Below are positions 1-21,046 of a stretch of 64,000 bases of DNA, in pieces. The notes beneath the pieces are model-generated. The model worked only from the letters and a program-made list of their open reading frames with translations, did no database searches and was not told the DNA's origin. The DNA comes from a virus. Its lineage: Duplodnaviria; Caudoviricetes. Within the stretch, counting starts at the first letter, position 1, and each line of letters starts with the position of its first letter. Where the stretch lies: positions 1 through 64,000 of the IMG/VR virus record IMGVR_UViG_2509276065_000002, one strand, 5' to 3'. A program made the translations under genes and the position numbers.

Positions 1-522
1 TCAAGGTTGCGGTTTTGCTTCGGTTCCTTCATGGCTTTCCTCCGTTCTTGCTGTTCTCAGCAGCTGGTTGGCTTGCGCCTGGTTCTCGAACTCCAGTTCG
101 TCGAGGCGGCGCCAGGCGATCCGCAGGTCACGCTTGAGCGACTCGCTCTCGGCGCTGTAGCGCAGGTTCTCGCCAGTGAGGTTGCCGACCGTCGCGCGCA
201 GCTCCGCGTTCTCAGTGAGCAGGCGGGTGTTCTCCTCGTGCAGGTGCTTGTTGCGTTCGCCGAGCGCGGCCAGCTCGCCCCGCACGGTGGCGAGCTCACT
301 GCGCACTTCACTGACTTCCTGACCGAGGTTGATGCGCTCCTGGCGTTCCTCACCCAGCTGCTTCTGCAGGGTGGTCAGCAGCCACTGCCCACCGGACTGG
401 CCGAGCTCTTCGGTCTTCTGCCGGCGGTTGTTCCACGCGATGATCAGGTCAGCGAGGAGTTTGATGATCGCGATGATGACCGCGGGTGGTCCAAAAATCT
501 CGAAGGCACGATCGAGGGTCAC
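1..522 (-). CDS. Holin/spanin-like protein: N-terminal TM helix plus long coiled coil
   Basis: GTG start at 522; hydrophobic IFGPPAVIIAIIKLLADLIIAW then heptad repeats; downstream of tail genes; next gene starts at 32 with a GGAGG RBS. Confidence 0.6.
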   Translation of the reverse strand: MTLDRAFEIFGPPAVIIAIIKLLADLIIAWNNRRQKTEELGQSGGQWLLTTLQKQLGEERQERINLGQEVSEVRSELATVRGELAALGERNKHLHEENTRLLTENAELRATVGNLTGENLRYSAESESLKRDLRIAWRRLDELEFENQAQANQLLRTARTEESHEGTEAKPQP

Positions 523-2807: not shown

Positions 2808-3275
2808 TTACCCGGCCGTGAGGTTGATGACCCACTCAACCGTGCACGCCAGCAGATTGGTCTTTTGAAAAGCGGCGACGTTCGCGGTCGCCAGCGTCGT
2901 GAAGGCGCCGGCCTGCCCGAGGTACAGACGCGCTCCGTTGATCGTCACGGGCTGCAGCGCGGGCTGCAGCGTCGAAATGTAGAGGATGTTCGTCACGCTG
3001 CCACCGACCGTGAACTGATCGGTCAGGTCCGCGCGGAACACCTCATTCGCGCCGCTGTGCACCCCGAGCTGGGTGATACCGTACTTCAAACCGCCGTTCA
3101 GCGGATCTGCCAGCAGCATCTGCGCGATGTACACCAGACCCAGACGCTCGATGGCGTTGTGATCGTCGTGCACCACGCGCGCCTGCTGGTAGGTGTCTCG
3201 GCTGTACGCGTACGCGGGGGGGTGTTCGAACACCCGCACGTGACCGGTCAGACCGAACGTAGCGTTCAGTTTCAT
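2808..3275 (-). CDS. Minor tail (baseplate-like) protein
   Basis: Position in the tail-tip cluster; RBS GGAGA; C-terminal KTN...TVEW.I motif. Confidence 0.6.
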   Translation of the reverse strand: MKLNATFGLTGHVRVFEHPPAYAYSRDTYQQARVVHDDHNAIERLGLVYIAQMLLADPLNGGLKYGITQLGVHSGANEVFRADLTDQFTVGGSVTNILYISTLQPALQPVTINGARLYLGQAGAFTTLATANVAAFQKTNLLACTVEWVINLTAG

Positions 3276-3691
3276 GTCTCTCCTTCCAGCCACGCCTCGG
3301 AGGCGCGCGTGAATGCACTCGTGAACAGGCGCGCGCTGCCTCCGATCAACTCGAAGGTCAGCTCGTCCTGCAGGAACGCCAGAACTTCACCGAGCTCCTC
3401 GTACAGCGCTTCGGAGGCCCGGGTGAATTCGCTGAGGTACGCGGTATCGCGCTCGTCGAAGTCCAGTGAAGTCAGGCCGGTGAAGGTCGCGTCGGCCGCC
3501 CCGAGCACCTGCGAGCGGCCGACCTGCATGTAGCCCAACCGGCAGCGTGCCGCGCCGAGGGTGGCGGTCACGCTGTCGGTCATCAGCACGGTGTCCGAGA
3601 ACAGCACCAAGCTCTCGACCGTCTCGTTGCCACCCCTGAGGGTTTTGGGACGCAGCAGGTCCGCCAGGGTGCGCTCCAGCTCGCGGGCCAT
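3272..3691 (-). CDS. Minor tail protein with C-terminal double FTRAS module
   Basis: Coupled to both neighbours; C-terminal 48 aa align without gaps to the 16895-17149 product. Confidence 0.65.
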   Translation of the reverse strand: MARELERTLADLLRPKTLRGGNETVESLVLFSDTVLMTDSVTATLGAARCRLGYMQVGRSQVLGAADATFTGLTSLDFDERDTAYLSEFTRASEALYEELGEVLAFLQDELTFELIGGSARLFTSAFTRASEAWLEGET

Positions 3692-4977: not shown

Positions 4978-7944
4978 TCACCTCAGGGCCGGCAGGTCGG
5001 CCCGCACGAGTTCACGCGTGCCTTGATAGATGCGCTGACCGACCTGCTGCGCGATGGTGCGGCCGTCCAGAATGACTTGCACGATGACCGACTCGCCACC
5101 TCCGCCGAGGCTCACCTCACCGTCGCGCAGGCCTTGCGCGAAGTTTTTGGGGATGATCATTTCGCCATCGTGAATCTGCGCCAGCTGGTCGCCTTTCACG
5201 TAGGTGGTTCCGACGTCGAAGCTGTTCACCAGCATCTTGGCGCCCTCGAACGCCAGGAAGGCCGCTCCGGCCGCAGCGACCATGCCCGGGATGGCCAGCA
5301 GGCTCGCCCCGAACGTCGCGGGAGCCTGCATGATCGCCACGGCGATCCCGGCCACCTGCTGCGCGATGATCTGCGCCTCGAGGCCGGTGAGCATCTGCAG
5401 CAGGAACTCCTTGAACGCCCCACCGAAATTCGAGAAGCCCTCTTGCGCCTGACCCCCGAGGAACTCGGCGAACTGCCCGGCGACCTGCATGCCCACGGCA
5501 GCCCAGCCAGTCATGCCTTGCGACCACTCGGTGAACTTGCCTTTCAGGAACGAACCGAATTTCGTCCAGCCTCCCTCGGTTGAAGTGAACGCCGCGAGGG
5601 CCGCTTCAGCGAAGTCCTGCACCTGCTTCAGGATCGGCCCGGCGCCTTCGCCGACCGCGGCTTTCACGGCCACCATTCCGAGCGTCATGATCGCGCCCCA
5701 GCGGCTTTTGTTCCCGTCGTGCTGGGTGGACCGGAAGGCGGTCAGGACGTCCATCCCGGCTTTCATGACACTGGAGAGCGTGCTGTCCTTCTCGCTCTCG
5801 ATGCCCCGCGTCAGACCTTCCATCAGCCAGCCGCCCATCTCGGCCGTCGCGCGAGACGGCGACTTCATCTTGAAGGTGTCCTTGAACCACGTCAGGACGT
5901 CCCCGCCGATGCCGACGACTTTCTTGCGGGTGTCTTCGTACTTCGCACTCAGGCCCATCATCAAGCCACCCAGCAGGTCGCTCCCGACGGTCTTCATGCG
6001 CGTCACCCACAAGTCGAAGCCTGCCTGCAGGTCACTCCAGCGGTTCGTCGCCCATGGCACGATGCCCTTGGTGCCGGTGATCGCCTCACTCCAGCTGGCT
6101 TTGGTCAGTTCCCACCACGCGGCGCCGGCATCCTTGATCTTCGACCCGAAAATCTTGCCGTCGATCCACAGGTTGCTGAGGGTCGTGACGGTGTCCGTGC
6201 TCCAACTGGTGACGAACTCCTTGACCGACTCGAGGGCCGGGAAGAGTTTGCGCATCAGCAGGTCGCTGCCTGCCTGGCCGACCTTGCCCGCGAGGACCTT
6301 GCCGTCCGTCCAGAGGTTCGCGAGGCTGGTGCCGACGTCGCGCGCCCAACTGGTCAGGAACTCGTTGGCGCCTTCGACCGTGGGCAGCAGTTTGGTGAGC
6401 AGGAAGTCGACTGAAGCGGCTTTGAGTTTGCCGCTGAAGATTTTGCCGTCCACCCAGAGGTTGCTGAGGGTCGTGGCGACGGTGTCACCCCAGCCCTGCA
6501 GGAACGTGCCGGCTTCGTTGAGCGAGGGCAGCAGCTTCTCCCACAGACCTTTGACCATCTTCTCGTTCTTGTCGAGCAGCGCGGTCAGGCTGTACTTGCT
6601 GAAAAAGCCCTTGATGGCCGGGGTGGCGACGTCATTCCACCACCAGATGATCGCCTCGTTCACCTCGTCCCGGTCCGCGCCGATCAAGGTGGACACCAGG
6701 CCATTCTTCATGTCCAGCAGGCCCTTGCCGACCTTGCTCCAGTCGGTCTGCGTGAAGCCGACCAGCGCGTCCATGATGCCCGTCGCGGCCTTCTTGACGC
6801 CTTCCCACTGGTTGCTTTTGCTGATGTCGGCCAGGAACTTGTTCCAGCTCTTGGTGATGTCTCCCTCGACGGACGCGCGGGTGACGTCCGCTGCACTTTT
6901 GACGCTGCCTTCGTACCCTTGCAGGGCCTGCTTGATGCGTTGAATCGCGTCGCCCGTGTAGCCCGCCGCGGCCTGCATGATCGGGCCGACCTCTTCACCG
7001 AACAGCACGCCCAGGGCCTGCTGTTCTTCTGCGGTGATTTTGTTGTCCGCCATGGCATTTTTCAGGCTGAGCATCATCAGCTCACCCGTGAGGATCGCGT
7101 CATTCTGCACGGTCTCCCGGTTGATGCCGAGGATCCCGAACATGTCGAGCAGCCCTTCGTCCGGATCCTCGCCTTTTTTGAAGGCGTTGCGGATGTCCCC
7201 CACGGCCTGGGAGAAGGTAATCAGGGCGTCCTTGGCCACCTCGGCATCACCGGCGTAGTAAGCGATCTGCCCCAGGAACGAGAGGCCATCGTCGAAGTCC
7301 TGGAAGGCGGTTTTCAGCAGGGGTGCGGCCTCGGCCATGGCGGCCGCCAGGCCTCCCGGGTCCACACCGATGGCGCGCGCGACCGCGTAGATTTTGTCGC
7401 CTGATTCACGCAGGGCCTCCAGCGTGTCCCGGTCCTTGAAGTACACCAGGATCAACCGGCGGAAATTCTTGCCGGCCTCCTCGATCGCCTGGCCCGTCGC
7501 GGCTTTCCAGTCGATCAGGTAGGTGGCGATGCCTTCTTTGTTTTTGGGGTTGAAGATCAAAAAGTCCGTGGCAACCGACTTCAAAGCCGCGCTGACGTCG
7601 GACATGCTGGCGCCCGTCGCGGCCGCCAGGTCCTTGAGCTGCCCGGCAATTTCAGGCAGTGAATCTTTCGTGGCGCCACTGATCCCACCGAGCTCCGCGG
7701 CGGCCTGCTGCACCTCGCGCTCCAGCGCGATGAGTTGCGCTCCGACCAGCAGCGCCGCGCCACCCAGGCCGAACAGGGCTGCGCGGGCGATGTTCGCCCC
7801 GGCCGCCAGGGCGCCCTGCATGCTCCGCCCGGCATTGTTCACCTGCTTCTCGCTCTTCTGCGCGTTGTTCCCTGCTTGCTGCATGACCTTGGACGCTTCG
7901 TCCCGGGCCCGCATGATGATTTCGATGATGCTCTCTGCAGCCAT
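4978..7944 (-). CDS. Tail tape measure protein
   Basis: 988 aa, Ala/Gly/Trp-periodic helical; MKSPSR and FDVGT..V..DQLAQIHDGEMIIP motifs. Confidence 0.92.
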   Translation of the reverse strand: MAAESIIEIIMRARDEASKVMQQAGNNAQKSEKQVNNAGRSMQGALAAGANIARAALFGLGGAALLVGAQLIALEREVQQAAAELGGISGATKDSLPEIAGQLKDLAAATGASMSDVSAALKSVATDFLIFNPKNKEGIATYLIDWKAATGQAIEEAGKNFRRLILVYFKDRDTLEALRESGDKIYAVARAIGVDPGGLAAAMAEAAPLLKTAFQDFDDGLSFLGQIAYYAGDAEVAKDALITFSQAVGDIRNAFKKGEDPDEGLLDMFGILGINRETVQNDAILTGELMMLSLKNAMADNKITAEEQQALGVLFGEEVGPIMQAAAGYTGDAIQRIKQALQGYEGSVKSAADVTRASVEGDITKSWNKFLADISKSNQWEGVKKAATGIMDALVGFTQTDWSKVGKGLLDMKNGLVSTLIGADRDEVNEAIIWWWNDVATPAIKGFFSKYSLTALLDKNEKMVKGLWEKLLPSLNEAGTFLQGWGDTVATTLSNLWVDGKIFSGKLKAASVDFLLTKLLPTVEGANEFLTSWARDVGTSLANLWTDGKVLAGKVGQAGSDLLMRKLFPALESVKEFVTSWSTDTVTTLSNLWIDGKIFGSKIKDAGAAWWELTKASWSEAITGTKGIVPWATNRWSDLQAGFDLWVTRMKTVGSDLLGGLMMGLSAKYEDTRKKVVGIGGDVLTWFKDTFKMKSPSRATAEMGGWLMEGLTRGIESEKDSTLSSVMKAGMDVLTAFRSTQHDGNKSRWGAIMTLGMVAVKAAVGEGAGPILKQVQDFAEAALAAFTSTEGGWTKFGSFLKGKFTEWSQGMTGWAAVGMQVAGQFAEFLGGQAQEGFSNFGGAFKEFLLQMLTGLEAQIIAQQVAGIAVAIMQAPATFGASLLAIPGMVAAAGAAFLAFEGAKMLVNSFDVGTTYVKGDQLAQIHDGEMIIPKNFAQGLRDGEVSLGGGGESVIVQVILDGRTIAQQVGQRIYQGTRELVRADLPALR
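6120..6545 (-). repeat. Three ~48-aa repeats within the tape measure protein
   Basis: TLSNLWVDGKIF / SLANLWTDGKVL / TLSNLWIDGKIF. Confidence 0.8.
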
Positions 7945-11873: not shown

Positions 11874-12827
11874 TCAGGCGACAGCGTTCTCGAAGAAAAA
11901 GCCGGCATCCGAGGCGATGACCTTCACGTCCTCGTTCCAGCCGTCCTTCACGTAGACGCTGCCCTTCACGCCTTTCTTGCCGTCGAAGTCACGCACGATG
12001 TTCGACTGGCTCTCGCTGAAGGTGACCGCCAGGCTGACGTCATTCAGGCCAGGGTTGGCGATCACGCGGGCGAGCAGGGCGTGCTTGCCCCACGCGCGCG
12101 CCAGGGTGGCCGCGGCACCCGGGTTGGCGGTGTTGACGCGCGCCCGGCCTACCACGACCTCCTCGAGCTCCAGCACCTCAGCGAGCTGCGCCAGGGTAGT
12201 CAGCGTGCCGCCCGCCTGGGCGTTGCCGCCCATGGGGAAGATCGCCGCGGCCACTTTCGGGTGACGACGCAGGATCTTCCACACGTCAGCGCCGATGGCC
12301 AGCAGGGTGGGACGCACGATCATGTTCTCGATCTCGTTGGTGAGGTCGCCGATCGGGTCGCTGTTGACGAAGTCACTCCACTGGCTGGTGCCGGCCAGGG
12401 TGCGCTTGTTGCCCGCCAGGTAGGCGGTAGCGACGAACAGACGGTCCGCCACGCGTTTCTCGTGACGGTTCTCCAGCTGCTGCTTGATGCTCTCGACCGC
12501 ATCGAGCTCAGGCTTGATGGGATCGTCCGCCTCGTCGACAGCTTCCTGAGGGACCCAGGCGCCGAGGGCGTGATCTTTCACGCTGTAGTTGTCCTCGGAG
12601 GTCTTCAGGGTGATCTCGTTGGCGTCCGCGTTGGGCGCCGTGGTGTCATCCGACTGCTCGAAGGCGGTGGCCTTGTCGAAGATGGTGTACTTGTCACTGC
12701 GCTTTTTGACCTGTTTCAGGGGCGCGAGTTTGCGCCAGATCGCCTCGGCGTTGACGTACTTGACGCTGAAGTCAGTGAGGGTTTGTTTGGTATGGACGTC
12801 ATTGGGGTTGAACGAGTTGCCAGCCAC
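11874..12827 (-). CDS. Major capsid protein
   Basis: 317 aa; LTDFSVKY, WSD..NSDPIGD, W..LRRHP motifs; AAGGAG RBS. Confidence 0.9.
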   Translation of the reverse strand: MAGNSFNPNDVHTKQTLTDFSVKYVNAEAIWRKLAPLKQVKKRSDKYTIFDKATAFEQSDDTTAPNADANEITLKTSEDNYSVKDHALGAWVPQEAVDEADDPIKPELDAVESIKQQLENRHEKRVADRLFVATAYLAGNKRTLAGTSQWSDFVNSDPIGDLTNEIENMIVRPTLLAIGADVWKILRRHPKVAAAIFPMGGNAQAGGTLTTLAQLAEVLELEEVVVGRARVNTANPGAAATLARAWGKHALLARVIANPGLNDVSLAVTFSESQSNIVRDFDGKKGVKGSVYVKDGWNEDVKVIASDAGFFFENAVA

Positions 12828-12898: not shown

Positions 12899-13270
12899 TT
12901 AACCCTGGAAAACGCCAGGGCTGAGCAGGACGTCGATCTCGTCACCGGCCGCAGCGGCCGCCTCGAGGGCGATCCCGGCAATGCCGTTGTTCACGCCCGC
13001 GGCGGGTGCGGCGGTCACGGCGCGCCCCTGCGCGTCAGCGGTGACGCGGGCACCGGCAGCGACGGCGGCGCCAGCGCGCACCTTCGCGACACCGGACACC
13101 ATGACGGTCGCGCCGGACCCGGCGGGCGTGTCGAACTCGACAACACCGACGGGCTGGTCAGCGGCTGCCACGGCGGTCGTGGCAGTCTTGCTGGCGCTGA
13201 GTTTGACGAGCGTGCGGCCGGTGAGTGCGATCGCAGCAGTGAGGGCGATGGATTGTCCACGTTGAGCCAT
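12899..13270 (-). CDS. Capsid decoration/cement protein (DUF2190-like)
   Basis: Ala-rich; GIALEAAAAAGDEIDVLL C-terminus. Confidence 0.85.
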   Translation of the reverse strand: MAQRGQSIALTAAIALTGRTLVKLSASKTATTAVAAADQPVGVVEFDTPAGSGATVMVSGVAKVRAGAAVAAGARVTADAQGRAVTAAPAAGVNNGIAGIALEAAAAAGDEIDVLLSPGVFQG

Positions 13271-13309: not shown

Positions 13310-15121
13310 TTACCCGCGCAGGTGCGGGTACTTCTTACGGGCAAGGACGATGGCGTCCTTTTGGCGGACGGACGGGTTTTCCGCTTTGACTTCCTCCAGC
13401 GCCTGGTCGAGGGTGACGTGGCTGGTGGTCTGGTGGAAGGTCTGCTCGCCCGTCTTGACGATGCCGACTTTCGCGAACTCCAGCAGGGCGAGGGCGATGA
13501 CCTCACCGGGCTTGTGTTCGCTGGTTCTGCCGCCGCGCGTGAGCTTGATGGTGGCCTGGCTGTCGAAGTCAGCCTCGAGGAGCGGGCGGGCGAGATTCAC
13601 CACGTGAGGGGGAACGCCGGCGCGCTGGAAGTGATCGAGGGTGATGGCCAGGGAACCGTCGAAGTTCTTGCGCCTGAGCTTGATGACTTCAGCCTGCGCG
13701 TCGGCCAGTTCGCGTTTCAGCTGCACTGACCGGGCGGGGCGGAGGTCTGAGAGTTGGATGGCCTCCAGGCCAGGAACGAAGGGGCGGTTGGTGAGTGCAC
13801 CACCGAGCATGACGGGCCCCGTGGGGTTGCCCGTCTTGTCATTGATGCCCGGGTGAACGCTGACGGACCACCAAGAGAACTCGCCGTTCTTGATGGACTC
13901 AGCGGCAGGTTTGGTGAAGTCGACCAGCGCGTACACCCGCTCGCCTTCGAGCTTCAGGTCGCAGATGTACCCGCTGGCTTTCTGGCTGGCCGGATCCGCG
14001 CTGGGGTCATCCATCGCGTGCCCGTAATCCGCAGCGACGCGTGGCTTGCCGTCCGGACCGATGCCGCCGAACACACCGGCCTGCAGGTTCTTCTGCCAGC
14101 TGTTGAAGTCGTCTTCGGTGAAGGTGATCGTGCCGTACTCGTCGTGCTCGTACGTGCCGAGGTTGATGACGTTCACCCAGGTGGCCGTCTTGCCTTCCTC
14201 GAGCAGGGTGGGCTTGAGGGGCGTGAAGAACCGCCGGCGGGACGTGGGCCGGTCGCTGAGCTGCAGGCCGGGCAGTTCCCCGCCAGCGCCCTCGGTCGCC
14301 GGGGGTGGCTCGGCGGTCGCGCTGGCCTCCTGGGGTTCCCCGAGGGTGGGCGTGCCGTCCGGTGCGACGCGCAGTTCCACGGTGTGCAGGGTGCCTTCGT
14401 CCGTTTCATCCTCGGGGTTGAGGACATCGAAGGTCACCTCGGATACCAATTCCTCGCCTTCACCGGCATCTTCGACGGTGACCTTGGTGATGGTGACGAG
14501 CTGACCCGGGTACTTCGCGCCGAGCAGCGACGTGGCCGCGTCACGCACCTGCGTTTCGCGATCGTCCGGTGTGGCCAGCGTCTGCGCCTCTTCCTCGACG
14601 GGAGGTGCAGCGGCCGCGGGCGAAGCGGGCGGCTCGTCGATCACGGCCGTGATCGACGCTTCGGTGGCAGCCACCTGCTTCTTCAGGATCCCGGCGATCG
14701 CTGCGGTGGTTTCCGCGTCGCCTGCCTGGGCGGCTTCGACCATGGCCGCCTGCAAGTTCTCGTTGAAGACGCGGGTGCCGCTGCGCAGCATGCTGGTCAG
14801 CAGGTGGCGCGTCAGCGTCGACGTGGGCTGCTCGGGCGGGATGGCTTCTCCCTCACTTGCAGTCGCGCTGGCCTCGCCGGGCGTGGCGTAAGTCGGCACG
14901 ACTTCCACCGGACTGCCGGCCAGGCTGACGGTCAGGTCGGTGACGGTGAAGTCCTGACGGTACAGTTTGCCGTCTGATTCGTTCTGGTACACGGCGTAAG
15001 TGCCGTACAGGTCACGCACCCAAATGACCCACGGAACGTAGGTACCGTCCGGCTGATCACCGGCGCCGGGATTCAGGAGGGCTTGGAGTTGCTGGCGAAT
15101 CTGGTCTGAGCTGAGTTCCAC
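13310..15121 (-). CDS. Prohead protease/scaffold (Mu-like) with long acidic N-terminal extension
   Basis: DYGH, ASGYI, FT..A...IKNGEF..WS, GALTNRPFV.GL motifs; GGAGG before GTG 15121. Confidence 0.88.
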   Translation of the reverse strand: MELSSDQIRQQLQALLNPGAGDQPDGTYVPWVIWVRDLYGTYAVYQNESDGKLYRQDFTVTDLTVSLAGSPVEVVPTYATPGEASATASEGEAIPPEQPTSTLTRHLLTSMLRSGTRVFNENLQAAMVEAAQAGDAETTAAIAGILKKQVAATEASITAVIDEPPASPAAAAPPVEEEAQTLATPDDRETQVRDAATSLLGAKYPGQLVTITKVTVEDAGEGEELVSEVTFDVLNPEDETDEGTLHTVELRVAPDGTPTLGEPQEASATAEPPPATEGAGGELPGLQLSDRPTSRRRFFTPLKPTLLEEGKTATWVNVINLGTYEHDEYGTITFTEDDFNSWQKNLQAGVFGGIGPDGKPRVAADYGHAMDDPSADPASQKASGYICDLKLEGERVYALVDFTKPAAESIKNGEFSWWSVSVHPGINDKTGNPTGPVMLGGALTNRPFVPGLEAIQLSDLRPARSVQLKRELADAQAEVIKLRRKNFDGSLAITLDHFQRAGVPPHVVNLARPLLEADFDSQATIKLTRGGRTSEHKPGEVIALALLEFAKVGIVKTGEQTFHQTTSHVTLDQALEEVKAENPSVRQKDAIVLARKKYPHLRG

Positions 15122-15178
15122 GGTGGACCTCCAATGAAAGAGCCCCACCGATCGGTGGGGCGGGCTTGTGGTGCGGGG

Positions 15179-15298
15179 TTAGGGGCGCCGGCGGGGGGCG
15201 TGCAGCCAGTTGAGCCAGGCGAAGTAAGCGAGGATCAGCACGGCCAGGATGAAACCGAGAATCCAGGGCAGGACGAGCCAGAACGCCCAGCACTTCAC
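15179..15298 (-). CDS. Small membrane peptide (39 aa)
   Basis: GTGA-coupled; single TM helix with basic tail. Confidence 0.5.
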   Translation of the reverse strand: MKCWAFWLVLPWILGFILAVLILAYFAWLNWLHAPRRRP

Positions 15299-15648
15299 AG
15301 GAACACCGCCACGGTCGGCGTGATGGTCTCGTCGACCAGCGTGCCGTCGTCTTGCTTCACTTTCACGGTGCGGGGTTCCATCTTGTGGACCTGCCACTTT
15401 TTGAGGTGCTTGGCTTTGAAGTTCGCGCGGCTGGTCCCGAACGATTCGGGCGGCACGGGTTTATCGGCGGTCTGCCGCACGCGGCACACGAAGGTTTTGT
15501 TGCCTTGGGCGTCAACGGCCTCACCGCCGCCGAGGGCGGGCGCGCACGCCTCGAAGCCGCTGCTGTCCGGCACGCCCAGGCCGACGCCGTGCTCGTCTTT
15601 GGCTTCCGGCAGGACCATGATGTAATCGGTAAATTCACGCATAGTCAC
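15295..15648 (-). CDS. Hypothetical virion protein
   Basis: Coupled ORF with phage-like codon use. Confidence 0.6.
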   Translation of the reverse strand: MTMREFTDYIMVLPEAKDEHGVGLGVPDSSGFEACAPALGGGEAVDAQGNKTFVCRVRQTADKPVPPESFGTSRANFKAKHLKKWQVHKMEPRTVKVKQDDGTLVDETITPTVAVFL

Positions 15649-15649
15649 C

Positions 15650-16891
15650 TCAGATGGTGGGCAGGGTGATGCGGTTGAGTTCGGCGAGCCAGCGCACGTC
15701 CAGGTCGGCGATTTCCTGTGCCGTCATGGCGCGCGGCGTGATGAAGGGGATGCCCAGGCCAGGAGCGCCAGGGGCGATCAGGCCAAACGTGTGCTTGGCC
15801 TGCCCCTCTTGACTTCCAAGAACGAGGGTGGTCGCCTGCACCTGAAGTGGTGTGGCAACCGTGCCACTAAGAGCGCCTTCGCTGTAGACGCTGACGCTGG
15901 AACCGTCCGAAGTGACAATCGTTCTTAACCAAGTGCGGGCCACGTTGTTTGGCTGTGCGACTGCATTACTTGTCCCGTTGTAACGTACTTGGCGGCCATA
16001 GCCGGTGCCGTGCCGCACTTCGAGCGCCACGCCCAAATCACCCCCGGAACCCGTGCCGAAGCTGAGCGGGGGTTGCTGAAACCCCGTAACTCCCTCGTTC
16101 CAGTGAGCGACGGCCAGCGTGAACGGCTGGAACGGCTTGAGGAGTCCGGCCAGCCCATTGGCCGTCCATGTGTCGTGGGCTCGCGTGGTCGCCGTTCCCG
16201 CTGTGGAGGGAATGAACGAGGAAGAAAAGGCCGCGCTGCGCTCGAACTGTGGCGCGGCGATTCTAAAGGTGTGGTCCACCGCGAAGGGCAGGGCCGCGGT
16301 GGACGGAATGGTGACGGTCACGAAGAAGCGGTCAAGCGCATTGGCGGGCTCGGCGGGAGCGGCGACGCTGGCCACCCCACTGATGCGCTTGAAGGTGCGG
16401 TCAAGTTGCGCGTGGACATTGACTGAAATACTCGTCAGGTACGATCCGTCGCTTTGCTTGGTCAGGTCCGAGTACAGCGCAAAGGTGTTGAGCTGCGCCT
16501 TATCCCCAGAGCGGAGCGCGGCGTGGATCGAGTAAGCGTGGTTATCCCCTGCGGTGTACGCGCCCACGACGGCGCCCGTTTGGAAAATGAAGTAGAAGCC
16601 GCGTGTCGCTTCGATGTTGCCGTATACCCGCACATCGAGGTAGTTCAGTCCATCCTGAACGCCGCTCCCGACGACTTCCGCGTTGAGGTTGCCGTTGTCG
16701 TAGCGGTGGAAGCTCCAGTGAGTCGAAAGGGCGGCGCTGCTCCCTGTTGTTCCCGCGAAGATCGGGCCGCTCATGGGTGCTCCGGGGTCGGTGCGTTTGA
16801 TGAGGTTGGTGCGCTGCCCTTCGATCAGCACGGCGGGACTTCCGGTGTTCTTGCCGTAAATGCGGGGCACGTCATTTGCTACGAGGGGCAT
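15650..16891 (-). CDS. Head-spike/fibre protein with LamG/concanavalin-like C-terminus
   Basis: N-terminal NDVPR...LIEGQRTNL, APQFER...SSFIPST...TTRA.D, C-terminal PRAMTAQEI. Confidence 0.78.
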   Translation of the reverse strand: MPLVANDVPRIYGKNTGSPAVLIEGQRTNLIKRTDPGAPMSGPIFAGTTGSSAALSTHWSFHRYDNGNLNAEVVGSGVQDGLNYLDVRVYGNIEATRGFYFIFQTGAVVGAYTAGDNHAYSIHAALRSGDKAQLNTFALYSDLTKQSDGSYLTSISVNVHAQLDRTFKRISGVASVAAPAEPANALDRFFVTVTIPSTAALPFAVDHTFRIAAPQFERSAAFSSSFIPSTAGTATTRAHDTWTANGLAGLLKPFQPFTLAVAHWNEGVTGFQQPPLSFGTGSGGDLGVALEVRHGTGYGRQVRYNGTSNAVAQPNNVARTWLRTIVTSDGSSVSVYSEGALSGTVATPLQVQATTLVLGSQEGQAKHTFGLIAPGAPGLGIPFITPRAMTAQEIADLDVRWLAELNRITLPTI

Positions 16892-16894
16892 GTG

Positions 16895-17149
16895 TTACTC
16901 CCAGGCGCCCGAGGCGCGCGTGTACGTCGAGGTGAACAGGAGGGGGTTCGCTTCGTTCTGCGTGAAGTTCAGGCTGACGGGCAGGCGCGCGTAGACCCCG
17001 CCGACGGCGTCCCACTTGGCGGCGCTGGCGCGCATGAAGGCGCTGAAATCACTGCCGCGCGAGGTACGGAAGCCCAGTGCGTTGTCCTGTGGAGCGAACG
17101 TCGCGCCACCCGTCGCGCGCTTCTTGCGCAGGGCGATGACCGCGCTCAC
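16895..17149 (-). CDS. Small fibre adaptor with double FTRAS module
   Basis: In frame with the downstream fibre gene, separated only by TAA CAC; FMRAS and YTRAS motifs. Confidence 0.65.
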   Translation of the reverse strand: MSAVIALRKKRATGGATFAPQDNALGFRTSRGSDFSAFMRASAAKWDAVGGVYARLPVSLNFTQNEANPLLFTSTYTRASGAWE

Positions 17150-17150
17150 C

Positions 17151-17432
17151 TCAGGCTCCGGTGGACTGCGCCCAGACCACGACGATCGTGCCGCTGGTGT
17201 ACGCACTGCACCTTGCCCGGGCGAAGGCGGCATCTTCGAGAATGTTGCGCAGTACCGGCGCGCTCTCCGTGCTGGCGGGCAGCCAGTCGACCCCGTTGTT
17301 ACTGATCTCGATCACAACGGTGCCTGAGAACACTCCGCTCACCTGAAAGGACTTCAGGGGGGAGTTCTGGATAGGAATAGGGTTGGCGGCGCCGACGGCG
17401 TTCAGTTCCTGGCGGGTTTGTTGTGCGGGCAT
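17151..17432 (-). CDS. Small head-associated beta protein
   Basis: FQVSGVFSGTVVIEISNNGVDW motif common in phage head regions; GGAG RBS. Confidence 0.7.
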   Translation of the reverse strand: MPAQQTRQELNAVGAANPIPIQNSPLKSFQVSGVFSGTVVIEISNNGVDWLPASTESAPVLRNILEDAAFARARCSAYTSGTIVVVWAQSTGA

Positions 17433-17446
17433 AGGGTCTCCAAGGA

Positions 17447-17473
17447 GAAACCCGCCACAAGGGCGGGTTTCTT
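17447..17473. terminator. Terminator downstream of the HEPN moron
   Basis: GAAACCCGCC-acaag-GGCGGGTTTC inverted repeat. Confidence 0.8.
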
Positions 17474-18846
17474 CAGCTTTTAATGAGGGGTATGGGGACG
17501 GATTCCTGATGGAGTTGTAGAAGTAGGTTGCGGTGAGGTAGCGACAGCAGAGCCCTATCTAACAAACCCATCAGGTTATCCTTACGTGAGTTTGATTTTT
17601 TGAGTAGCAAGCTTAGCAGGATTAAAACACGAGTGAACTGGAGCAGTATTGGCAGATGATTCTCGGCCTCGGCCCGCTTTTTAGCACTGAGCAATCCTCC
17701 ATGAACATATGTGCTGCGATTGTCGTAGCACTTCGCGAGCATGGTACTTGCCTCTATTGGCTCGACTCCTTCGAGACTAAGAAGCAAGGCAGCTCGCTGG
17801 CAGAGCCGTCGCTTCAACTCCGGCTTATTCTCTCCAAAAAGAGCTTCTAGGGCACCAACTAGACGAGCGATTTTCGCGTCAGTAATGGTGTCCACTTTGA
17901 ACGACTCGTGATAGCGGCTGAGAGCTATGTCGATTTCAGGGTATCCAGTCCAAGTATCCCGACTACCGCTCGGTTTGCCCGAGTCAATCACCGCCAACAC
18001 AGGCTCCCGAAGCACGCGGAACAACTCAAGGTGCTTGCTGCTGAACTCGAACCCTTGGTCTACTTTCCAGGATTCAGTCGACCATGACGTATGGACGTTG
18101 TTAAACGGCACATAGTTTTCTGCGATCGTCATGACCGCCTCAACACTGCCTGTTCCGATGAGGGAGAGGGTTTGGAGCATTCTGACAGCATCTTCTTGGT
18201 ACGCATCTGCTGAGGGGTACTTCTTGTGGATATCGAGGACTGCGGATGGGTAATCACGAAGTGGTGAGTTTCGCTCCCCGAGTATCCTTAAATCCGCAGC
18301 AATATCCTCGGCAGTAATCCTCCTGAGAACTACTCCGGGCTCTAACCCGTACGACTCCTCCATCAAGTAGACGCCAGTTATCCAGGAGGTCGTTATGAAC
18401 GTTGGTCGTTCCCCAACCGCTCGGTCAACAAGGGCATCTCGCACCTTGGTGAATAGGTGAGGGTTGTCGAGCTTTCCTTCGAGAAGGGCATGGACAATTC
18501 TTCGGAGAGTGGTGTCTATAACTACCTCACGCCCCGCCTCGCCTTGGTAAGGAGGTCCTAAGAGGGCCTCTCTCGCTTTAGCAATAGGATGCGCAGGATC
18601 TTCGAACTCTGCCATCATCTGGACGAAGGAGGACATACCCTTAACTAAACGAGGTCTCTCTTCCGAGTGATGCGAGGTGATTTGAAGTCTTGGCTCAAAT
18701 CGCATTTCTGACGGAAGCCAGACTTGTTCGGTTCGGCGATAGACCAATAACTTCCCACTTTTAGCAGCGTCCGCAACCTCGTGCACAATAGTTTGCAGGT
18801 ACAGATCAGCGAGCCTGGTTGCAGTGTTGCGGTCGGGGTGGGTCAC
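17473..18846 (-). CDS. HEPN-domain (ApeA-like) protein, candidate anti-phage RNase
   Basis: ALSRY...LVGALEALF...L.RRL.QRAA.LL...YDNRSTYVHG (R-X4-H); visibly lower GC. Confidence 0.82.
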   Translation of the reverse strand: MTHPDRNTATRLADLYLQTIVHEVADAAKSGKLLVYRRTEQVWLPSEMRFEPRLQITSHHSEERPRLVKGMSSFVQMMAEFEDPAHPIAKAREALLGPPYQGEAGREVVIDTTLRRIVHALLEGKLDNPHLFTKVRDALVDRAVGERPTFITTSWITGVYLMEESYGLEPGVVLRRITAEDIAADLRILGERNSPLRDYPSAVLDIHKKYPSADAYQEDAVRMLQTLSLIGTGSVEAVMTIAENYVPFNNVHTSWSTESWKVDQGFEFSSKHLELFRVLREPVLAVIDSGKPSGSRDTWTGYPEIDIALSRYHESFKVDTITDAKIARLVGALEALFGENKPELKRRLCQRAALLLSLEGVEPIEASTMLAKCYDNRSTYVHGGLLSAKKRAEAENHLPILLQFTRVLILLSLLLKKSNSRKDNLMGLLDRALLSLPHRNLLLQLHQESVPIPLIKS

Positions 18847-18862: not shown

Positions 18863-21046
18863 TTACAGATCGTGTATGCGACGCACCCAGTTGCCGTTCG
18901 CGTCTTCCTCTTCGAGCCAGCAGCGGCAGTAGATGCCGCACTGGGTCTTGCCGTCGCCTGGAATGGCGGGCAGGTCCCGAATGGAAGCGTAGACGCCCGC
19001 ATGCCGGGGGCAGTCAGGGCAGTGGCTGGCGAGGTTGTCGAGCACCCAGCGGATGCGGCCGTGCGTGACGTCCGGGTCCTCTTCGCGCTGCATGCGCTTG
19101 TCCACCCAGCCTTCGACGATGGTCGCCCAGTAGTCACCGCCGCCCTGCTTGGTCACGTAGCCCATTCTGACCTGGATGAGGCCGTGCAGCTCGCTCGCCG
19201 TGGCGCCGGGCAGGTCTGTGGCGATCTTCTGCCCGACTGTGGCGATCGTGCGGGCCAGTCCTTCCTCGAGGAGCTTGAGCCGCTCAGCGAGGGTGGCCAG
19301 GCTGTCTGGTGTGGGGGTGGGGCCGAGGCCGAGGGTGTAACCGGCCGGGATGGCTTCACGGTACGCGGTGAGGGCCAGCTTCTGCAGTTGCCGCAGTCGG
19401 GACTCCAGCACGGCCGGACGCTCGACGTCGATCACGTCAGCGAGGGCTTTCGCGGTCCCTTTCGACCAGGTCTCGTACAGCTCGCCGAGGAGTTCCTGGA
19501 AGGCTTTCGTCTGCGTCTCCCACTCGCGGCCGTGTGTGGCTTTGCGCACGCCGGGCACATCGAGGTCGAAGGTGTGAACCTTGGGGACCTTGGCCGTGGC
19601 CTGAATCGCTGCTGGAGCTGCAGCGGCGTGCCCGGGCTGGTCGCTCCCGGCGCCCTGGGCCGTCACGCCGTCCCCGATTTCCGAAGCGAGCACCGGCACG
19701 CCGAGTTCCTTGGCGAGAGCCTCGGTGTCGACCTTGAGGGCGCCGGGATTGTACATCAGCACCTGACCGAGGAACTGCTTGAAGAAATCCTGCAGGAAGC
19801 TCTTGTTGCCCTGGCTGAGCTTCACCGGCGCGAAGGAGGCGTCGACCACGGAGGATCCGAAGTTGTAGTCGATCAAGGGGCGCGCCCAGCTGGCCGCGAT
19901 GAACTCCAGCATCTCGGCGGCGAGGGCCTCTTCGGACATCAGGAAGAAGTCCGCGAGGCTCTCGACCATCGCGAAGCTGCCGCCACCCTGGCCACTCGCG
20001 ATGAGCTTCTCGGGGACGAACATGGCGCGCAGTTTCTTGAAGTCGTAGTGATCGAGCAGCGTGATGAACTCGCCGGCCTTCTGCGGGCCGGTGAGGTACT
20101 CCATGTCCCAGCCCTTCTGGTAACTGAGGCTCTCGCCGTTCTGCACTTCCTGCAAGGGGAAGGCGATGGCACTGCCGGCCCGGCTGTCCTCGGCGACACG
20201 TAGGGCGTCAGCGAGGGCGAGGTCCACGTACGCGCTCTCGGGGTTGTTGGGGTCGGAGACTCGCAGGTCGGGCTCGTAAAAGACTTTGCGCTGCGGGATC
20301 GCCTGGTCTTCCATGTAGCGGTTGCTGAACTGGTAGAGCAGCTGCTGCCACCACCAGTACTTGTACGCCGCGCGCGTGCGGGGGTTGCCGTAGCGGTTCC
20401 CGAACTGCTCGTCGTGCGTATAGATCAGCGCCTTGTCTTCAGGGACGTCCGCGCGACCGCCGCTGGTCTGCTTGAAACCCAGGCCTTCGCCGCGCTCTCC
20501 GGTGATCAGTTCGATCGCCGCGGGGTGCATCCACTTGAGCTTCTCGTACACCACGGCGTTCCCGGACCACAAAGTGCGGCCACGGCGCTGAATGGTGGTG
20601 TCCTTGTACGTGAAGACCTTCTCGGCGGCCGCGAAGCCGAACTCGAGGGCGCGCAGGATGTTGCGCATCAGGCGCAGGCGGTTGCGGTCGAATTCGTGCT
20701 GCAGGAACTCGCGCACTTCCGGCTCGGGGTGCACGACCTCGGGGCGCAGCGTGAGGATCGGCAGCTTGATGATCTCCAGCCCGGCCTTCACCTGCCCGTC
20801 GAGCGCCAGGCGTTCGAGTGTCACGGGATCGAGGCGTGTGAGGACGCCTTTGCGCGGGTCTTCGATCTGGGTGTAGTAGCGGCCGGTGGTCTGCACTTGC
20901 GGATCCTGCCGGCCGGTGAGTTCCCCTTTGGGTGGCCGGGTCAGGCGGCTGTCAGCGGCTTCGAAGAGTCGAGCGGCGCGGGAGCTGCCGAGCGTCAGCG
21001 TGAGCTCCGCGCGTTCGGTGCTGGAGAGCTGCAGTTCTTTGGTCAT
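18863..21046 (-). CDS. Portal protein (Mu gp29/DUF935-like) fused to a minor-head gpF-like C-terminal domain
   Basis: ALEFGFAAAEKV, YGNP...AYKYWW motifs; C-terminal W...HCPDC...PGDGKTQCGIYCRC. Confidence 0.88.
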   Translation of the reverse strand: MTKELQLSSTERAELTLTLGSSRAARLFEAADSRLTRPPKGELTGRQDPQVQTTGRYYTQIEDPRKGVLTRLDPVTLERLALDGQVKAGLEIIKLPILTLRPEVVHPEPEVREFLQHEFDRNRLRLMRNILRALEFGFAAAEKVFTYKDTTIQRRGRTLWSGNAVVYEKLKWMHPAAIELITGERGEGLGFKQTSGGRADVPEDKALIYTHDEQFGNRYGNPRTRAAYKYWWWQQLLYQFSNRYMEDQAIPQRKVFYEPDLRVSDPNNPESAYVDLALADALRVAEDSRAGSAIAFPLQEVQNGESLSYQKGWDMEYLTGPQKAGEFITLLDHYDFKKLRAMFVPEKLIASGQGGGSFAMVESLADFFLMSEEALAAEMLEFIAASWARPLIDYNFGSSVVDASFAPVKLSQGNKSFLQDFFKQFLGQVLMYNPGALKVDTEALAKELGVPVLASEIGDGVTAQGAGSDQPGHAAAAPAAIQATAKVPKVHTFDLDVPGVRKATHGREWETQTKAFQELLGELYETWSKGTAKALADVIDVERPAVLESRLRQLQKLALTAYREAIPAGYTLGLGPTPTPDSLATLAERLKLLEEGLARTIATVGQKIATDLPGATASELHGLIQVRMGYVTKQGGGDYWATIVEGWVDKRMQREEDPDVTHGRIRWVLDNLASHCPDCPRHAGVYASIRDLPAIPGDGKTQCGIYCRCWLEEEDANGNWVRRIHDL

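What the first reader, a model, noticed from the sequence alone, without database searches (positions are those of the whole stretch)
15650..17149. Fibre gene split in frame at its FTRAS/PR junction: candidate split-domain docking
Seen: ...YTRASGAWE-TAA-CAC-ATG-PLVANDVPR...LIEGQRTNL, same frame, with a GGAG RBS overlapping the last codons of the upstream gene. From my knowledge of head-spike/LamG fibres, FTRAS....N.PR....LIE..RTNL is normally one continuous domain. Here the FTRAS half is on a separate 84-aa protein, in two copies. Inference: the fibre is completed in trans by a strand from an adaptor, giving a plug-in receptor-binding module.
Basis: partly seen in the sequence, partly recalled or inferred. 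Interest (0 to 1): 0.8.

Follow-up and report, generated by a model that had tools for sequence, protein, structure and literature searches.

The report
Lectin fibre gene split in two
A prophage encodes its sugar-binding fibre as two separately translated proteins, cut inside the first hairpin of a domain that is one piece in most relatives; five distant relatives start at the same point, so it is probably a working two-part fibre, but binding of the parts is untested.

Summary
On the minus strand an 84-aa ORF (17149-16895) ends YTRASGAWE-TAA. CAC follows, then the ATG of a 413-aa fibre (16891-15650) in the same frame, with GGGAG 6 nt upstream.

- **Family:** a family profile matches the RcGTA head-spike fibre Rcc01080 (E 5.6e-24).
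- **Fused relatives:** of 101 cluster representatives with the motif, 89 have at least 46 residues upstream of it, enough for the FTRAS strand. Every junction I inspected was continuous.
- **Split relatives:** five others (26-31% identical) begin at exactly the window's Met (MxxVxxDVPRIYG). Their upstream DNA could not be fetched.
- **Predicted structure:** in AlphaFold models the stop sits in a beta-turn. The 84-aa tail appears to supply the first strands of a ConA/LamG-like sandwich. Without it the fibre's first strand is lost.
- **Second copy:** the same docking strand ends a 139-aa tail protein (3272-3691), not a second 84-aa protein.
- **Related prophage:** one syntenic prophage in another genome lacks fibre, both handles and the motif.

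Best reading: a two-gene fibre joined by strand complementation (0.55). A recent nonsense mutation is unlikely.

Unchecked notes from this scan describe three-part head spikes in other genomes, and the tail copy here.

The parts
16895..17149 (-). 84-aa handle gene (GTG start, TAA stop). Residues 1-70 are predicted disordered or low-confidence and probably form the anchor and linker. Residues 71-84, LFTSTYTRASGAWE, are the two strands that precede the break.
   Evidence: ORF and translation. GC3 0.89. AF2 strands at 73-77 and 82-84, block pLDDT 81-88. The ESM Atlas model of the protein alone has pLDDT 0.29.
16892..16902 (-). The junction: GGGAG Shine-Dalgarno (16902-16898) inside the last codons, TAA (16897-16895), then the CAC spacer (16894-16892). 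The ATG follows at 16891.
   Evidence: Read directly from the sequence. No unusually stable RNA structure around or after the stop (z +1.15).
15650..16891 (-). 413-aa fibre body. Residues 1-30 hold the conserved N-terminal strands MPLVANDVPRIYG...LIEGQRTNL. Residues ~31-232 form an inserted beta-sandwich, the Rcc01080-like domain. Residues ~233-390 are the rest of a LamG/ConA-like sandwich. A C-terminal helix spans 391-405.
   Evidence: phrog_1419 tail protein at E 3.8e-5 and a sub-threshold Laminin_G_3 hit. Family profile against PDB gives Rcc01080 at E 5.6e-24. AF2 models. VIA Z 15-17 to ConA-like lectin domains.
16802..16891 (-). Fibre residues 1-30, the proposed acceptor end. This is the best-conserved part of the split forms: 55% mean identity against 21-22% for the domain bodies.
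   Evidence: Alignment A1 and the identity tally. The MPLV strand and its confidence are lost when the 84-aa part is left out of the model.
15295..15648 (-). 117-aa gene of unknown function, the third gene of the inserted cassette, coupled to the fibre stop through a GAGGTGA site.
   Evidence: ORF and junction. No Pfam or PHROG hit. No match in the syntenic G156 prophage. The Atlas search gave nothing usable.
17151..17432 (-). 93-aa gene upstream of the handle. It belongs to the conserved head-gene backbone and is not part of the cassette.
   Evidence: A 45%-identical homologue sits between portal and protease in the G156 prophage, which has no fibre. No PDB sequence match at E up to 0.1, and none to the RcGTA spike base.
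3272..3691 (-). 139-aa tail protein after the hub gene. Its C-terminal ~50 aa (3275-3436) repeat the handle module and end LFTSAFTRASEAWLEGET. The next gene overlaps it (ATGA) and is not a fibre of this family.
   Evidence: tblastn and BLASTP, 45% over 49 aa, E 7e-10 pairwise. The docking strand is 10 of 13 identical. No match in G156.

Best explanation
This is a naturally two-gene version of an Rcc01080 (GhsB)-type lectin fibre. It is carried on a three-gene cassette (84 aa, 413 aa, 117 aa) that is present between the 93-aa head gene and the protease gene of this prophage and absent from the one syntenic relative found.

The gene is cut in the turn of the first beta-hairpin of the fibre's ConA/LamG-like sandwich.
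- The 84-aa product carries a disordered anchor and linker plus the first two strands (TSTYT, AWE).
- The 413-aa product starts with the next strand (MPLV) and carries the rest of the sandwich and the inserted sugar-binding-type domain.
- Each is translated from its own Shine-Dalgarno site and start codon.

I infer that the two chains rejoin without a covalent bond. The handle's C-terminal strands would complete the fibre's sheet, so the small protein acts as the mounting handle.

**Shown:** the anatomy, the homology, that most relatives are fused, and that five relatives start at the same residue.

**Inferred:** the fold topology (from models, with no coordinates seen), docking in trans, and the handle's role as an anchor.
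For: 1. **Translation signals.** The stop, GGGAG and ATG form a normal coupled gene junction. All four genes (93, 84, 413 and 117 aa) are joined this way. The fused relatives inspected have G, A, V or T at the Met position, never Met. A single nonsense mutation would therefore not produce this junction.
2. **Recurrence.** An exhaustive HMMER scan with the read-through protein gave 341 hits.
   - Of 101 cluster representatives with the LIE..RTN motif, 89 have at least 46 residues upstream, enough for the FTRAS strand and an anchor. About 30 junctions inspected directly were continuous.
   - Six, including the window, start 19-21 residues upstream, at the same aligned position: P0015, P0017, P0020, P0046 and P0095.
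   - These five align with the window's fibre end to end at 26-31% identity.
   - The tree needs at least 2 split/fused changes across well-supported branches, with terminal branches of about 1-2 changes per site.
3. **Fold.** In the read-through model the break is a turn between strands 82-84 and 87-90, block pLDDT 81-93.
   - In the fibre-alone model the first 10 residues fall to pLDDT 63 and the first strand disappears.
   - ConA-like lectin domains align better to the read-through model. AbnA domain 4 (5hon_A) gives Z 16.7 with 181 aligned residues and chain range 652-845.
   - For the fibre alone the same chain gives Z 15.3, 164 aligned and chain range 675-845.
   - The handle therefore seems to supply the target fold's first ~23 residues.
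4. **Conservation.** The fibre's N-terminal 30 residues are the best-conserved part of the split forms, 55% against 21-22% for the bodies.
5. **Second handle.** The docking strand LFTS[TA][YF]TRAS[GE]AW is 10 of 13 identical between the 84-aa protein and the 139-aa tail protein, while their N-terminal parts are unrelated. The genome holds one fibre and these two handles only.
6. **Co-occurrence.** The syntenic G156 prophage gave no match for the fibre, either handle or the 117-aa gene, and has no FTRAS motif in 33 kb.
7. **Handle alone.** The 84-aa protein is predicted disordered on its own, Atlas pLDDT 0.29. That fits a partner-dependent fold.
Against: - No binding test of any kind was possible.
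- The AF2 read-through model uses an alignment dominated by fused relatives, so it would tend to draw the hairpin anyway.
- I saw no coordinates. The topology is inferred from the first and last aligned residues and from aligned lengths.
- The DNA upstream of the five other split forms was never seen. An upstream FTRAS-ending gene there is assumed, and their starts are gene-caller starts.
- No small homologue of the 84-aa or 139-aa protein was found in 5.8 billion proteins, although that search depends on shared 5-residue words.
- No close relative of the prophage carries the cassette, so purifying selection on this particular copy cannot be measured.
- The co-occurrence argument rests on a single comparison genome.
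- The tree is poorly resolved: 11 of 17 inner branches are unsupported.
Confidence: 0.55

Rival explanations
1. The two proteins are made separately but do not dock. The fibre body works or mounts by other means, for example through its conserved C-terminal helix. The FTRAS-ending small proteins have their own role, such as an assembly factor, or are what recombination left behind at a conserved module boundary.
For: - In tandem-array relatives the (F)TRAS/TRAAD element is an inter-domain connector, and some arrays omit it (P0024, P0033, P0146). It may therefore be dispensable for the fold of the following domain.
- The fibre-alone model is still confident overall, mean pLDDT 81.6.
- GC3 falls from about 0.9 in the handle to about 0.77 in the fibre. 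That is compatible with a recombination boundary at the junction.
- The gene after the tail handle is not a fibre of this family.
Against: - The docking strand is the best-conserved part of two otherwise unrelated handle proteins.
- The fibre's N-terminal 30 residues are the best-conserved part of the split forms.
- The fibre's first strand is lost in the model without the handle.
- Fibre and both handles are absent together from the one syntenic relative found.
Confidence: 0.2
2. A recent in-frame nonsense mutation, or a sequencing error, in a normally fused gene of a decaying prophage. The 84-aa ORF would be a remnant and the fibre a pseudogene fragment.
For: Most relatives are fused. The closest relative by identity, P0037 at 32%, is fused. 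No close relative of this prophage carries the cassette for comparison.
Against: - Stop, Shine-Dalgarno site and ATG occur together. The Met position carries no Met in the fused forms inspected.
- Five diverged relatives start at the same residue.
- GC3 of the 84-aa frame is 0.89-0.98.
- Identical 84-aa and 413-aa proteins are on record from 4 contigs.
- A second handle ends at nearly the same place.
- The surrounding late genes are intact and coupled.
Confidence: 0.1
3. The functional product is a fused ~499-aa protein made by read-through of the TAA, alone or alongside the two separate products. This would resemble the minor read-through coat protein of Qbeta-type phages.
For: Same frame with only one sense codon between stop and start. 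The read-through product gives a coherent, confident model whose loop is one residue longer than in fused relatives.
Against: - TAA is generally the least leaky stop codon (general knowledge, not tested here).
- There is no stimulatory RNA structure around or after the stop; the region folds slightly worse than shuffled sequence, z +1.15.
- The strong SD and ATG argue for re-initiation.
- The tail handle's junction is an out-of-frame ATGA overlap, so read-through cannot explain that copy.
Confidence: 0.07

Closest known systems
RcGTA head spike: fibre Rcc01080 (GhsB) on the pentameric base Rcc01079 (GhsA). PDB 6TB9/6TBA/6TSU/6TUI; Bardy et al. 2020, PMC7296036; PMC10218006.
   Same: - The family profile built here hits the Rcc01080 chain as its best PDB match, E 5.6e-24. 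The match covers the FTRAS...PR...LIE..(R/S)TN start through the PQLE...S.IPT...TRAAD end.
- Both have a short N-terminal anchor and linker before the FTRAS strand.
- Both fibre genes sit with head genes.
- Rcc01080 binds capsular polysaccharide (PMC10218006), which makes glycan binding the likely function here.
   Different: - Rcc01080 is one 325-aa chain. Here the anchor, linker and first two strands are a separate 84-aa protein.
- The window's fibre has an extra LamG-like C-terminal part of about 180 aa.
- The 84-aa N-terminus has no (I/L)-G repeat like the IALGLGLGL peptide that plugs into the base (PMC7296036).
- No Rcc01079-like base gene was recognised.
- The window's protein alone does not hit the PDB chain. 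The link is at profile level only.
Fused relatives in phage tail proteins: phrog_1419 and phrog_5939 'tail protein', about 800 aa (for example P0037 at 1089 aa, P0009, P0010).
   Same: Same fibre body, including the conserved C-terminal LIAPGAPGLGIPF...RWL.EL segment in some members. Same junction sequence: FTRASQAW-DGTG-LVAPDTMRVFG in fused forms against YTRASGAW-E*HM-PLVANDVPRIYG here.
   Different: In those proteins a 150-700-aa anchor is covalently joined to the body. Here the anchor is a separate small protein, and the break replaces the glycine-rich turn.
Donor-strand complementation in chaperone-usher pili, and split-protein strand complementation in general. This is from general knowledge and is an analogy of mechanism, not homology.
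   Same: A beta-sandwich that lacks an edge or first strand is completed by a strand from another polypeptide.
   Different: Different fold family and biology. Here the complementation is only predicted, and the donor is a dedicated small protein or a tag on a tail protein, not the neighbouring subunit of a polymer.
Adaptor-mounted receptor-binding proteins of phages, for example the lactococcal BppU/BppA/BppL tripod (PDB 5E7T) and the branched tailspike systems of CBA120- and G7C-type phages (the latter from general knowledge).
   Same: A separate adaptor carries an exchangeable receptor-binding protein. 5e7t_B appears among the weak sequence-profile and Foldseek matches.
   Different: Those partners are whole folded domains that bind each other. 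Here a single domain appears to be divided between two genes.

Membership tests
Rcc01080 (GhsB)-type head-spike fibre family | Sequence homology to the Rcc01080 lectin-like body, with the FTRAS...PR...LIE..RTN and PQLE...S.IPT...TRAxD motifs | tested here: met
   A profile of 83 relatives, with the window's read-through protein as first row, matches 6tb9_F3 at E 5.6e-24 over chain residues 24-285. All the motifs are present in the window. The single sequence finds no PDB chain.
Rcc01080 (GhsB)-type head-spike fibre family | One polypeptide: anchor peptide, FTRAS strand and body are contiguous | tested here: not met
   A TAA stop, then a new SD and ATG, lie between the FTRAS strand and the PR...LIE..RTN stretch.
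Rcc01080 (GhsB)-type head-spike fibre family | N-terminal (I/L)-Gly repeat peptide that plugs into the pentameric base (PMC7296036) | tested here: not met
   The 84-aa protein starts (M)SAVIALRKKRATGG and has no LGLGL-type repeat. A different anchoring mode is not excluded.
Rcc01080 (GhsB)-type head-spike fibre family | Adjacent Rcc01079-like jellyroll base gene | tested here: inconclusive
   The upstream 93-aa protein has no PDB sequence match at E up to 0.1. It is conserved in a relative that lacks the fibre.
Rcc01080 (GhsB)-type head-spike fibre family | Located on capsid vertices | not testable with these tools
   Only gene position speaks for it: the gene lies between portal and protease. 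A second handle on a tail protein argues that the tail is at least as likely.
ConA-like lectin / LamG superfamily (Pfam PF13385 Laminin_G_3) | Pfam match above the gathering score | tested here: not met
   17 bits against a cut-off of 27.6, E 0.0068, residues 280-372. The relative P0009 passes at 32.4 bits.
ConA-like lectin / LamG superfamily (Pfam PF13385 Laminin_G_3) | Beta-sandwich fold of ConA-like lectin type | tested here: met
   The AF2 models (pTM 0.77 and 0.80) align to AbnA domain 4, the trans-sialidase lectin domain, pentraxins and clostridial-toxin lectin-like binding domains. Z is 14-17, rmsd about 3 A, 164-190 residues aligned. This shows a shared fold only, not a shared function.
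PHROG phrog_1419 (tail protein) | Significant profile match | tested here: met
   E 3.8e-5, residues 21-370 against profile positions 433-772 of 793. The first ~430 profile positions, the anchor, have no counterpart.
Strand-complemented split domain (mechanism, not a homology family) | The acceptor lacks a strand of its own fold and the donor chain supplies it | tested here: inconclusive
   Model-based only. 17 more residues of 5hon_A align when the handle is present, and the first strand is lost without it.
Programmed stop-codon read-through | Leaky stop context or a stimulatory downstream RNA structure | tested here: not met
   TAA-C context. The 126 nt around and after the stop fold no better than shuffles, z +1.15.

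The most novel reading that the evidence does not exclude
The FTRAS strand may act as a portable docking tag. The prophage's single fibre would complete its lectin sandwich with a strand from either of two unrelated carrier proteins: the 84-aa protein encoded in the head-gene block, or the 139-aa protein encoded after the tail hub. One receptor-binding subunit could then be displayed at two places on the particle. Fibre bodies could also be exchanged by recombination without touching the anchors.

Two further observations fit this. Each handle carries a second, degenerate FTRAS-like element about 38 residues upstream (FMRASAAKW, FTRASEALY), so it might hold two fibres. In another element, three paralogous split fibres appear to share a contig; this is inferred only from matching contig lengths of 14,046 and 101,954 bp.
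Probability: 0.3. Interest if true: 0.75.

Novelty: new variant of a known kind. Interest (0 to 1): 0.6.

Why it matters
Phage receptor-binding proteins are usually described as whole proteins that bind an adaptor domain. A fibre whose own lectin fold is divided between two genes would be a different attachment principle, closer to pilus donor-strand complementation. It would be more so if the small piece also occurs as a tag on a tail protein.

If true, it would explain how one fibre can be shared between sites and swapped between phages at a fixed joint. It would also give a short (about 14-residue) natural tag for mounting lectin domains on phage particles. The idea is directly testable by co-expression and virion mass spectrometry.

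It also matters for annotation: members of this family that start at MxxVxxDVPRIYG should not be called truncated.

Tried and rejected
The contigs of the split relatives could not be read.
There was no multimer test of handle plus fibre.
There was no read-level check of the TAA and no expression data.

**Searches for DNA context of the split relatives: none obtained**
- Viral contigs with alignment A1.
- Metagenome contigs with A2 gave four loci. All four are open in frame from the (F)TRAS-type strand into the LIE..RTN stretch, so all are fused forms.
- GenBank phages by tblastn with P0001, P0017 and P0095: no match.

**Searches among related genomes**
- 61 related genomes with the read-through protein, and 364 genomes of the phylum with the fibre alignment. 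Only the window's own genome holds the fibre; the other hits are weak LamG-only matches.

**Searches for small homologues of the handles**
- The 84-aa and 139-aa proteins each found only themselves. This search depends on shared 5-residue words, so it is weak evidence of absence.

**The 93-aa protein as an Rcc01079-like spike base: not supported**
- No PDB sequence match.
- No similarity to the gene upstream of a fused relative.
- It is present in a prophage that has no fibre.

**Other**
- The 117-aa gene gave no usable lead from Pfam, PHROGs or the Atlas.
- The Atlas look-alikes of the 84-aa protein are ~100-aa viral proteins with LamG_3, scoring 0.87-0.88. That is below the level that counts, so it is a lead only.
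- Read-through signal: none found.
- Recent gene conversion between the two handle modules is rejected: 60% nucleotide identity.
Full report
**1. What is there**

The window has 63% G+C. Its first ~21 kb carry the late genes of a prophage on the minus strand.

| Gene | Coordinates | Evidence |
|---|---|---|
| Mu-type portal, 727 aa | 18863-21046 | PF06074, E 3e-22 |
| 457-aa gene of lower GC3 (0.55), followed by a hairpin-plus-T-run terminator | 17473-18846 | |
| 93-aa gene | 17151-17432 | |
| 84-aa ORF | 16895-17149 | |
| 413-aa 'fibre' | 15650-16891 | |
| 117-aa gene | 15295-15648 | |
| Mu-like protease/scaffold | 13310-15148 | |
| Cement protein | 12899-13270 | |
| Major capsid protein | 11874-12827 | |

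Head-completion, tube, tape-measure (4978-7944) and hub (3691-4974) genes follow.

The junction reads ...GCC TGG GAG TAA CAC ATG CCC..., in the same frame. GGGAG lies 6 nt before the ATG. The 84-aa frame is coding: GC3 is 0.89 overall and 0.98 in its last 50 codons, against 0.58 in the other frames. It starts at a GTG, with GGAG 6 nt upstream, directly after the stop of the 93-aa gene. The 93-, 84-, 413- and 117-aa genes are all joined by such coupled junctions.

The 84-aa and 413-aa proteins are on record letter for letter from four contigs, the 84-aa protein from several sources.

**2. What family it is**

Pfam gives only a sub-threshold Laminin_G_3 hit. PHROGs gives phrog_1419 'tail protein', covering profile positions 433-772 of 793.

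An exhaustive HMMER scan with the read-through translation (P0003, TAA read as Q) found 341 relatives. A profile of 83 of them has the RcGTA head-spike fibre Rcc01080 as its best solved match (6tb9_F3, E 5.6e-24). The match runs from the FTRAS strand to the TRAAD strand.

In RcGTA that fibre is a single 325-aa chain. Its residues 2-10 plug into a pentameric base, and the rest binds capsular polysaccharide (PMC7296036, PMC10218006).

**3. Is the family normally continuous?**

Mostly yes. Among 101 cluster representatives with the LIE..RTN motif, 89 have at least 46 residues upstream, enough for the FTRAS strand and an anchor. About 30 junctions that I printed were continuous.

In the closest subfamily the junction of fused forms reads FTRASQAW-DGTG-LVAPDTMRVFG...LIEGQRTN. 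The window reads YTRASGAW-E*HM-PLVANDVPRIYG...LIEGQRTN. The stop and start replace a glycine-rich turn, and the loop is one residue longer.

**4. Is the split a recent accident?**

Probably not. Five other cluster representatives begin at exactly the window's Met: P0015, P0017, P0020, P0046 and P0095. Each represents a different 50%-identity cluster. Their N-termini are MPLVDPHVMRWYG, MLSVSNDVPRIYG, MIPVVADVPRIYG, MPQVANDVPRVYG and VALVANDTPRVYG.

They align with the window's fibre over its whole length at 26-31% identity, including a conserved C-terminal LIAPGAPGLGIPF...RWL.EL.RI.LP segment.

On a tree of 20 subfamily members, split and fused forms are interleaved. At least two changes are forced by well-supported branches. 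The tree is otherwise poorly resolved, and terminal branches are about 1-2 changes per site. The split state is therefore old, recurrent or both.

The fused forms inspected have no Met at that position. The window's stop, SD and ATG together are not what one point mutation gives.

Variants of P0017, P0020 and P0046 appear to share contigs, judged from identical 'longest contig' lengths of 14,046 and 101,954 bp. One element may therefore carry three split fibres.

The weak point is that I could not read the DNA upstream of any of these relatives.

**5. Where the cut falls in the fold**

*Read-through model* (AF2, pTM 0.77):
- Residues 1-70 of the handle have low confidence.
- Strands follow at 73-77 (TSTYT) and 82-84 (AWE), then a two-residue turn at the stop, then strands at 87-90 (MPLV) and 96-98 (RIY).
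- Block pLDDT across this stretch is 81-93.

*Fibre-alone model* (pTM 0.80):
- The first ten residues fall to pLDDT 63 and the MPLV strand is gone.

*Structural alignments.* These show two lectin-type beta-sandwiches.

| Target lectin domain | Read-through model | Fibre alone |
|---|---|---|
| AbnA domain 4 (5hon_A) | Z 16.7, 181 aligned, model 57..485, chain 652-845 | Z 15.3, 164 aligned, model 5..399, chain 675-845 |
| Trans-sialidase lectin domain (3b69) | 189 aligned | 177 aligned |
| NTNHA (3v0a_B) | 183 aligned | 172 aligned |

My reading is that the handle's C-terminal strands and the fibre's first strands belong to the same sandwich as the fibre's C-terminal LamG-like part. The Rcc01080-like domain (about residues 31-232) would then be an insertion. 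The handle would supply roughly the first 20 residues of that fold.

This is an inference from aligned ranges and lengths. I could not see coordinates, and the alignment used for folding is dominated by fused relatives.

Tandem-array relatives show that (F)TRAS/TRAAD is a recurring connector strand after each ...PQLE..TS.IPT unit. The window's fibre has a second copy, TTRAHDTW, after its inserted domain.

**6. The second copy and the comparison phage**

The last ~50 residues of a 139-aa protein encoded just after the tail hub (3272-3691) match the handle module: 45% identity over 49 aa, pairwise E 7e-10.

The docking strand itself is LFTSTYTRASGAW in the handle and LFTSAFTRASEAW in the tail protein, 10 of 13 identical. 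The N-terminal parts are unrelated, and the modules are only 60% identical in DNA. The gene that follows overlaps it (ATGA) and is not a fibre of this family. The whole genome holds one fibre and these two handles.

A syntenic prophage in a genome of the same order (G156) shares these genes at 27-45% identity: portal, the 93-aa gene, protease, cement, capsid, tube, tape measure and hub. It gave no match for the 457-aa gene, the handle, the fibre, the 117-aa gene or the 139-aa tail protein. It has no FTRAS motif in 33 kb.

Relative to that one prophage, the handle, fibre and 117-aa genes behave as an inserted cassette, the tail handle is also an extra gene, and all are absent together. This is a single comparison, so it is suggestive only. 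The 93-aa gene belongs to the head backbone and is not evidently a spike base.

**7. How it most likely works**

The 84-aa and 413-aa proteins are translated separately. I infer that the handle's last ~14-28 residues complete the fibre's lectin sandwich by strand complementation. The disordered N-terminal ~70 residues of the handle would tether the fibre to the particle.

The tail protein with the same strand could mount the same fibre at the tail tip. That second step is more speculative (about 0.3).

By analogy with Rcc01080 and the lectin folds, the ligand is probably a surface polysaccharide. This was not tested.

**8. Rivals**

- **Separate proteins that do not dock (0.2).** The connector strand is omitted in some tandem arrays, and GC3 falls at the junction. 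Against this stands the selective conservation of exactly the two ends that would meet.
- **Recent nonsense mutation or sequencing error (0.1).** Argued against in section 4.
- **Read-through fusion (0.07).** TAA stop, no stimulatory structure (z +1.15), and an out-of-frame overlap at the tail copy.

**9. Novelty**

The fibre family and adaptor-mounted phage fibres are both known. I did not find a described case of a lectin domain divided between two genes at a fixed hairpin, with the small part duplicated as a tag on a tail protein. A full-text search for strand complementation together with phage receptor-binding adaptors returned nothing.

Notes from this scan, unchecked by me, describe three-part head spikes (base, micro-adaptor, fibre) in other genomes. 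Another agent described the tail copy in this window and reached a compatible reading.

I class this as a new variant of a known kind, interest 0.6.

Noticed in passing
window 17473-18846 (-), terminator about 17436-17472: A 457-aa gene with clearly lower GC3 (0.55, against 0.75-0.89 for its neighbours) sits between the portal gene and the 93-aa head gene. A hairpin-plus-T-run terminator follows it. It gave no match in the syntenic G156 prophage. The only family hit is a weak PHROG of unknown function (phrog_28161). A scan note calls it a HEPN defence moron; I did not test that.
   Followed up: partly
L016/L017 (G156 contig C40, 1-33000): A genome of the same order but a different family carries a syntenic prophage: portal, 96-aa gene, protease, cement, capsid, tube, tape measure and hub, at 27-45% protein identity. 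After the hub it has a conventional 429-aa tail fibre instead of the window's 139-aa handle and short 247-aa fibre.
   Followed up: partly
window 2054-2797 (-) and 2808-3275 (-): The 247-aa protein has a tail-fibre-like N-terminus (NKLVPDFSGGQAVTARVLNLIKENV) that resembles the start of the G156 429-aa fibre, pairwise E 0.013. The 155-aa protein aligns weakly but collinearly with the G156 186-aa post-hub protein, E 0.02. The phage therefore seems to have a short tail fibre of its own as well as the split lectin fibre.
   Followed up: partly
window 17021-17047 (-) and 3404-3430 (-): Each handle carries a second, degenerate FTRAS-like element about 38 residues upstream of the terminal one: FMRASAAKW in the 84-aa protein and FTRASEALY in the 139-aa protein. 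AF2 models this stretch of the 84-aa protein as a low-confidence helix. Its role is unknown; it might be a second docking site.
   Followed up: no
proteins P0087, P0099, P0108, P0127, P0116: Several relatives start just before the LLIE..RTN strand or exactly at the PR motif, some with non-Met first letters. They may be partial gene calls, or further break points in the same junction region.
   Followed up: no
window 18863-21046 (-): The portal ORF is 727 aa. The Mu portal domain covers only residues 78-402. The long C-terminal part may be a fused Mu gpF-like head-morphogenesis domain (from general knowledge, not tested). The G156 homologue has the same length.
   Followed up: no
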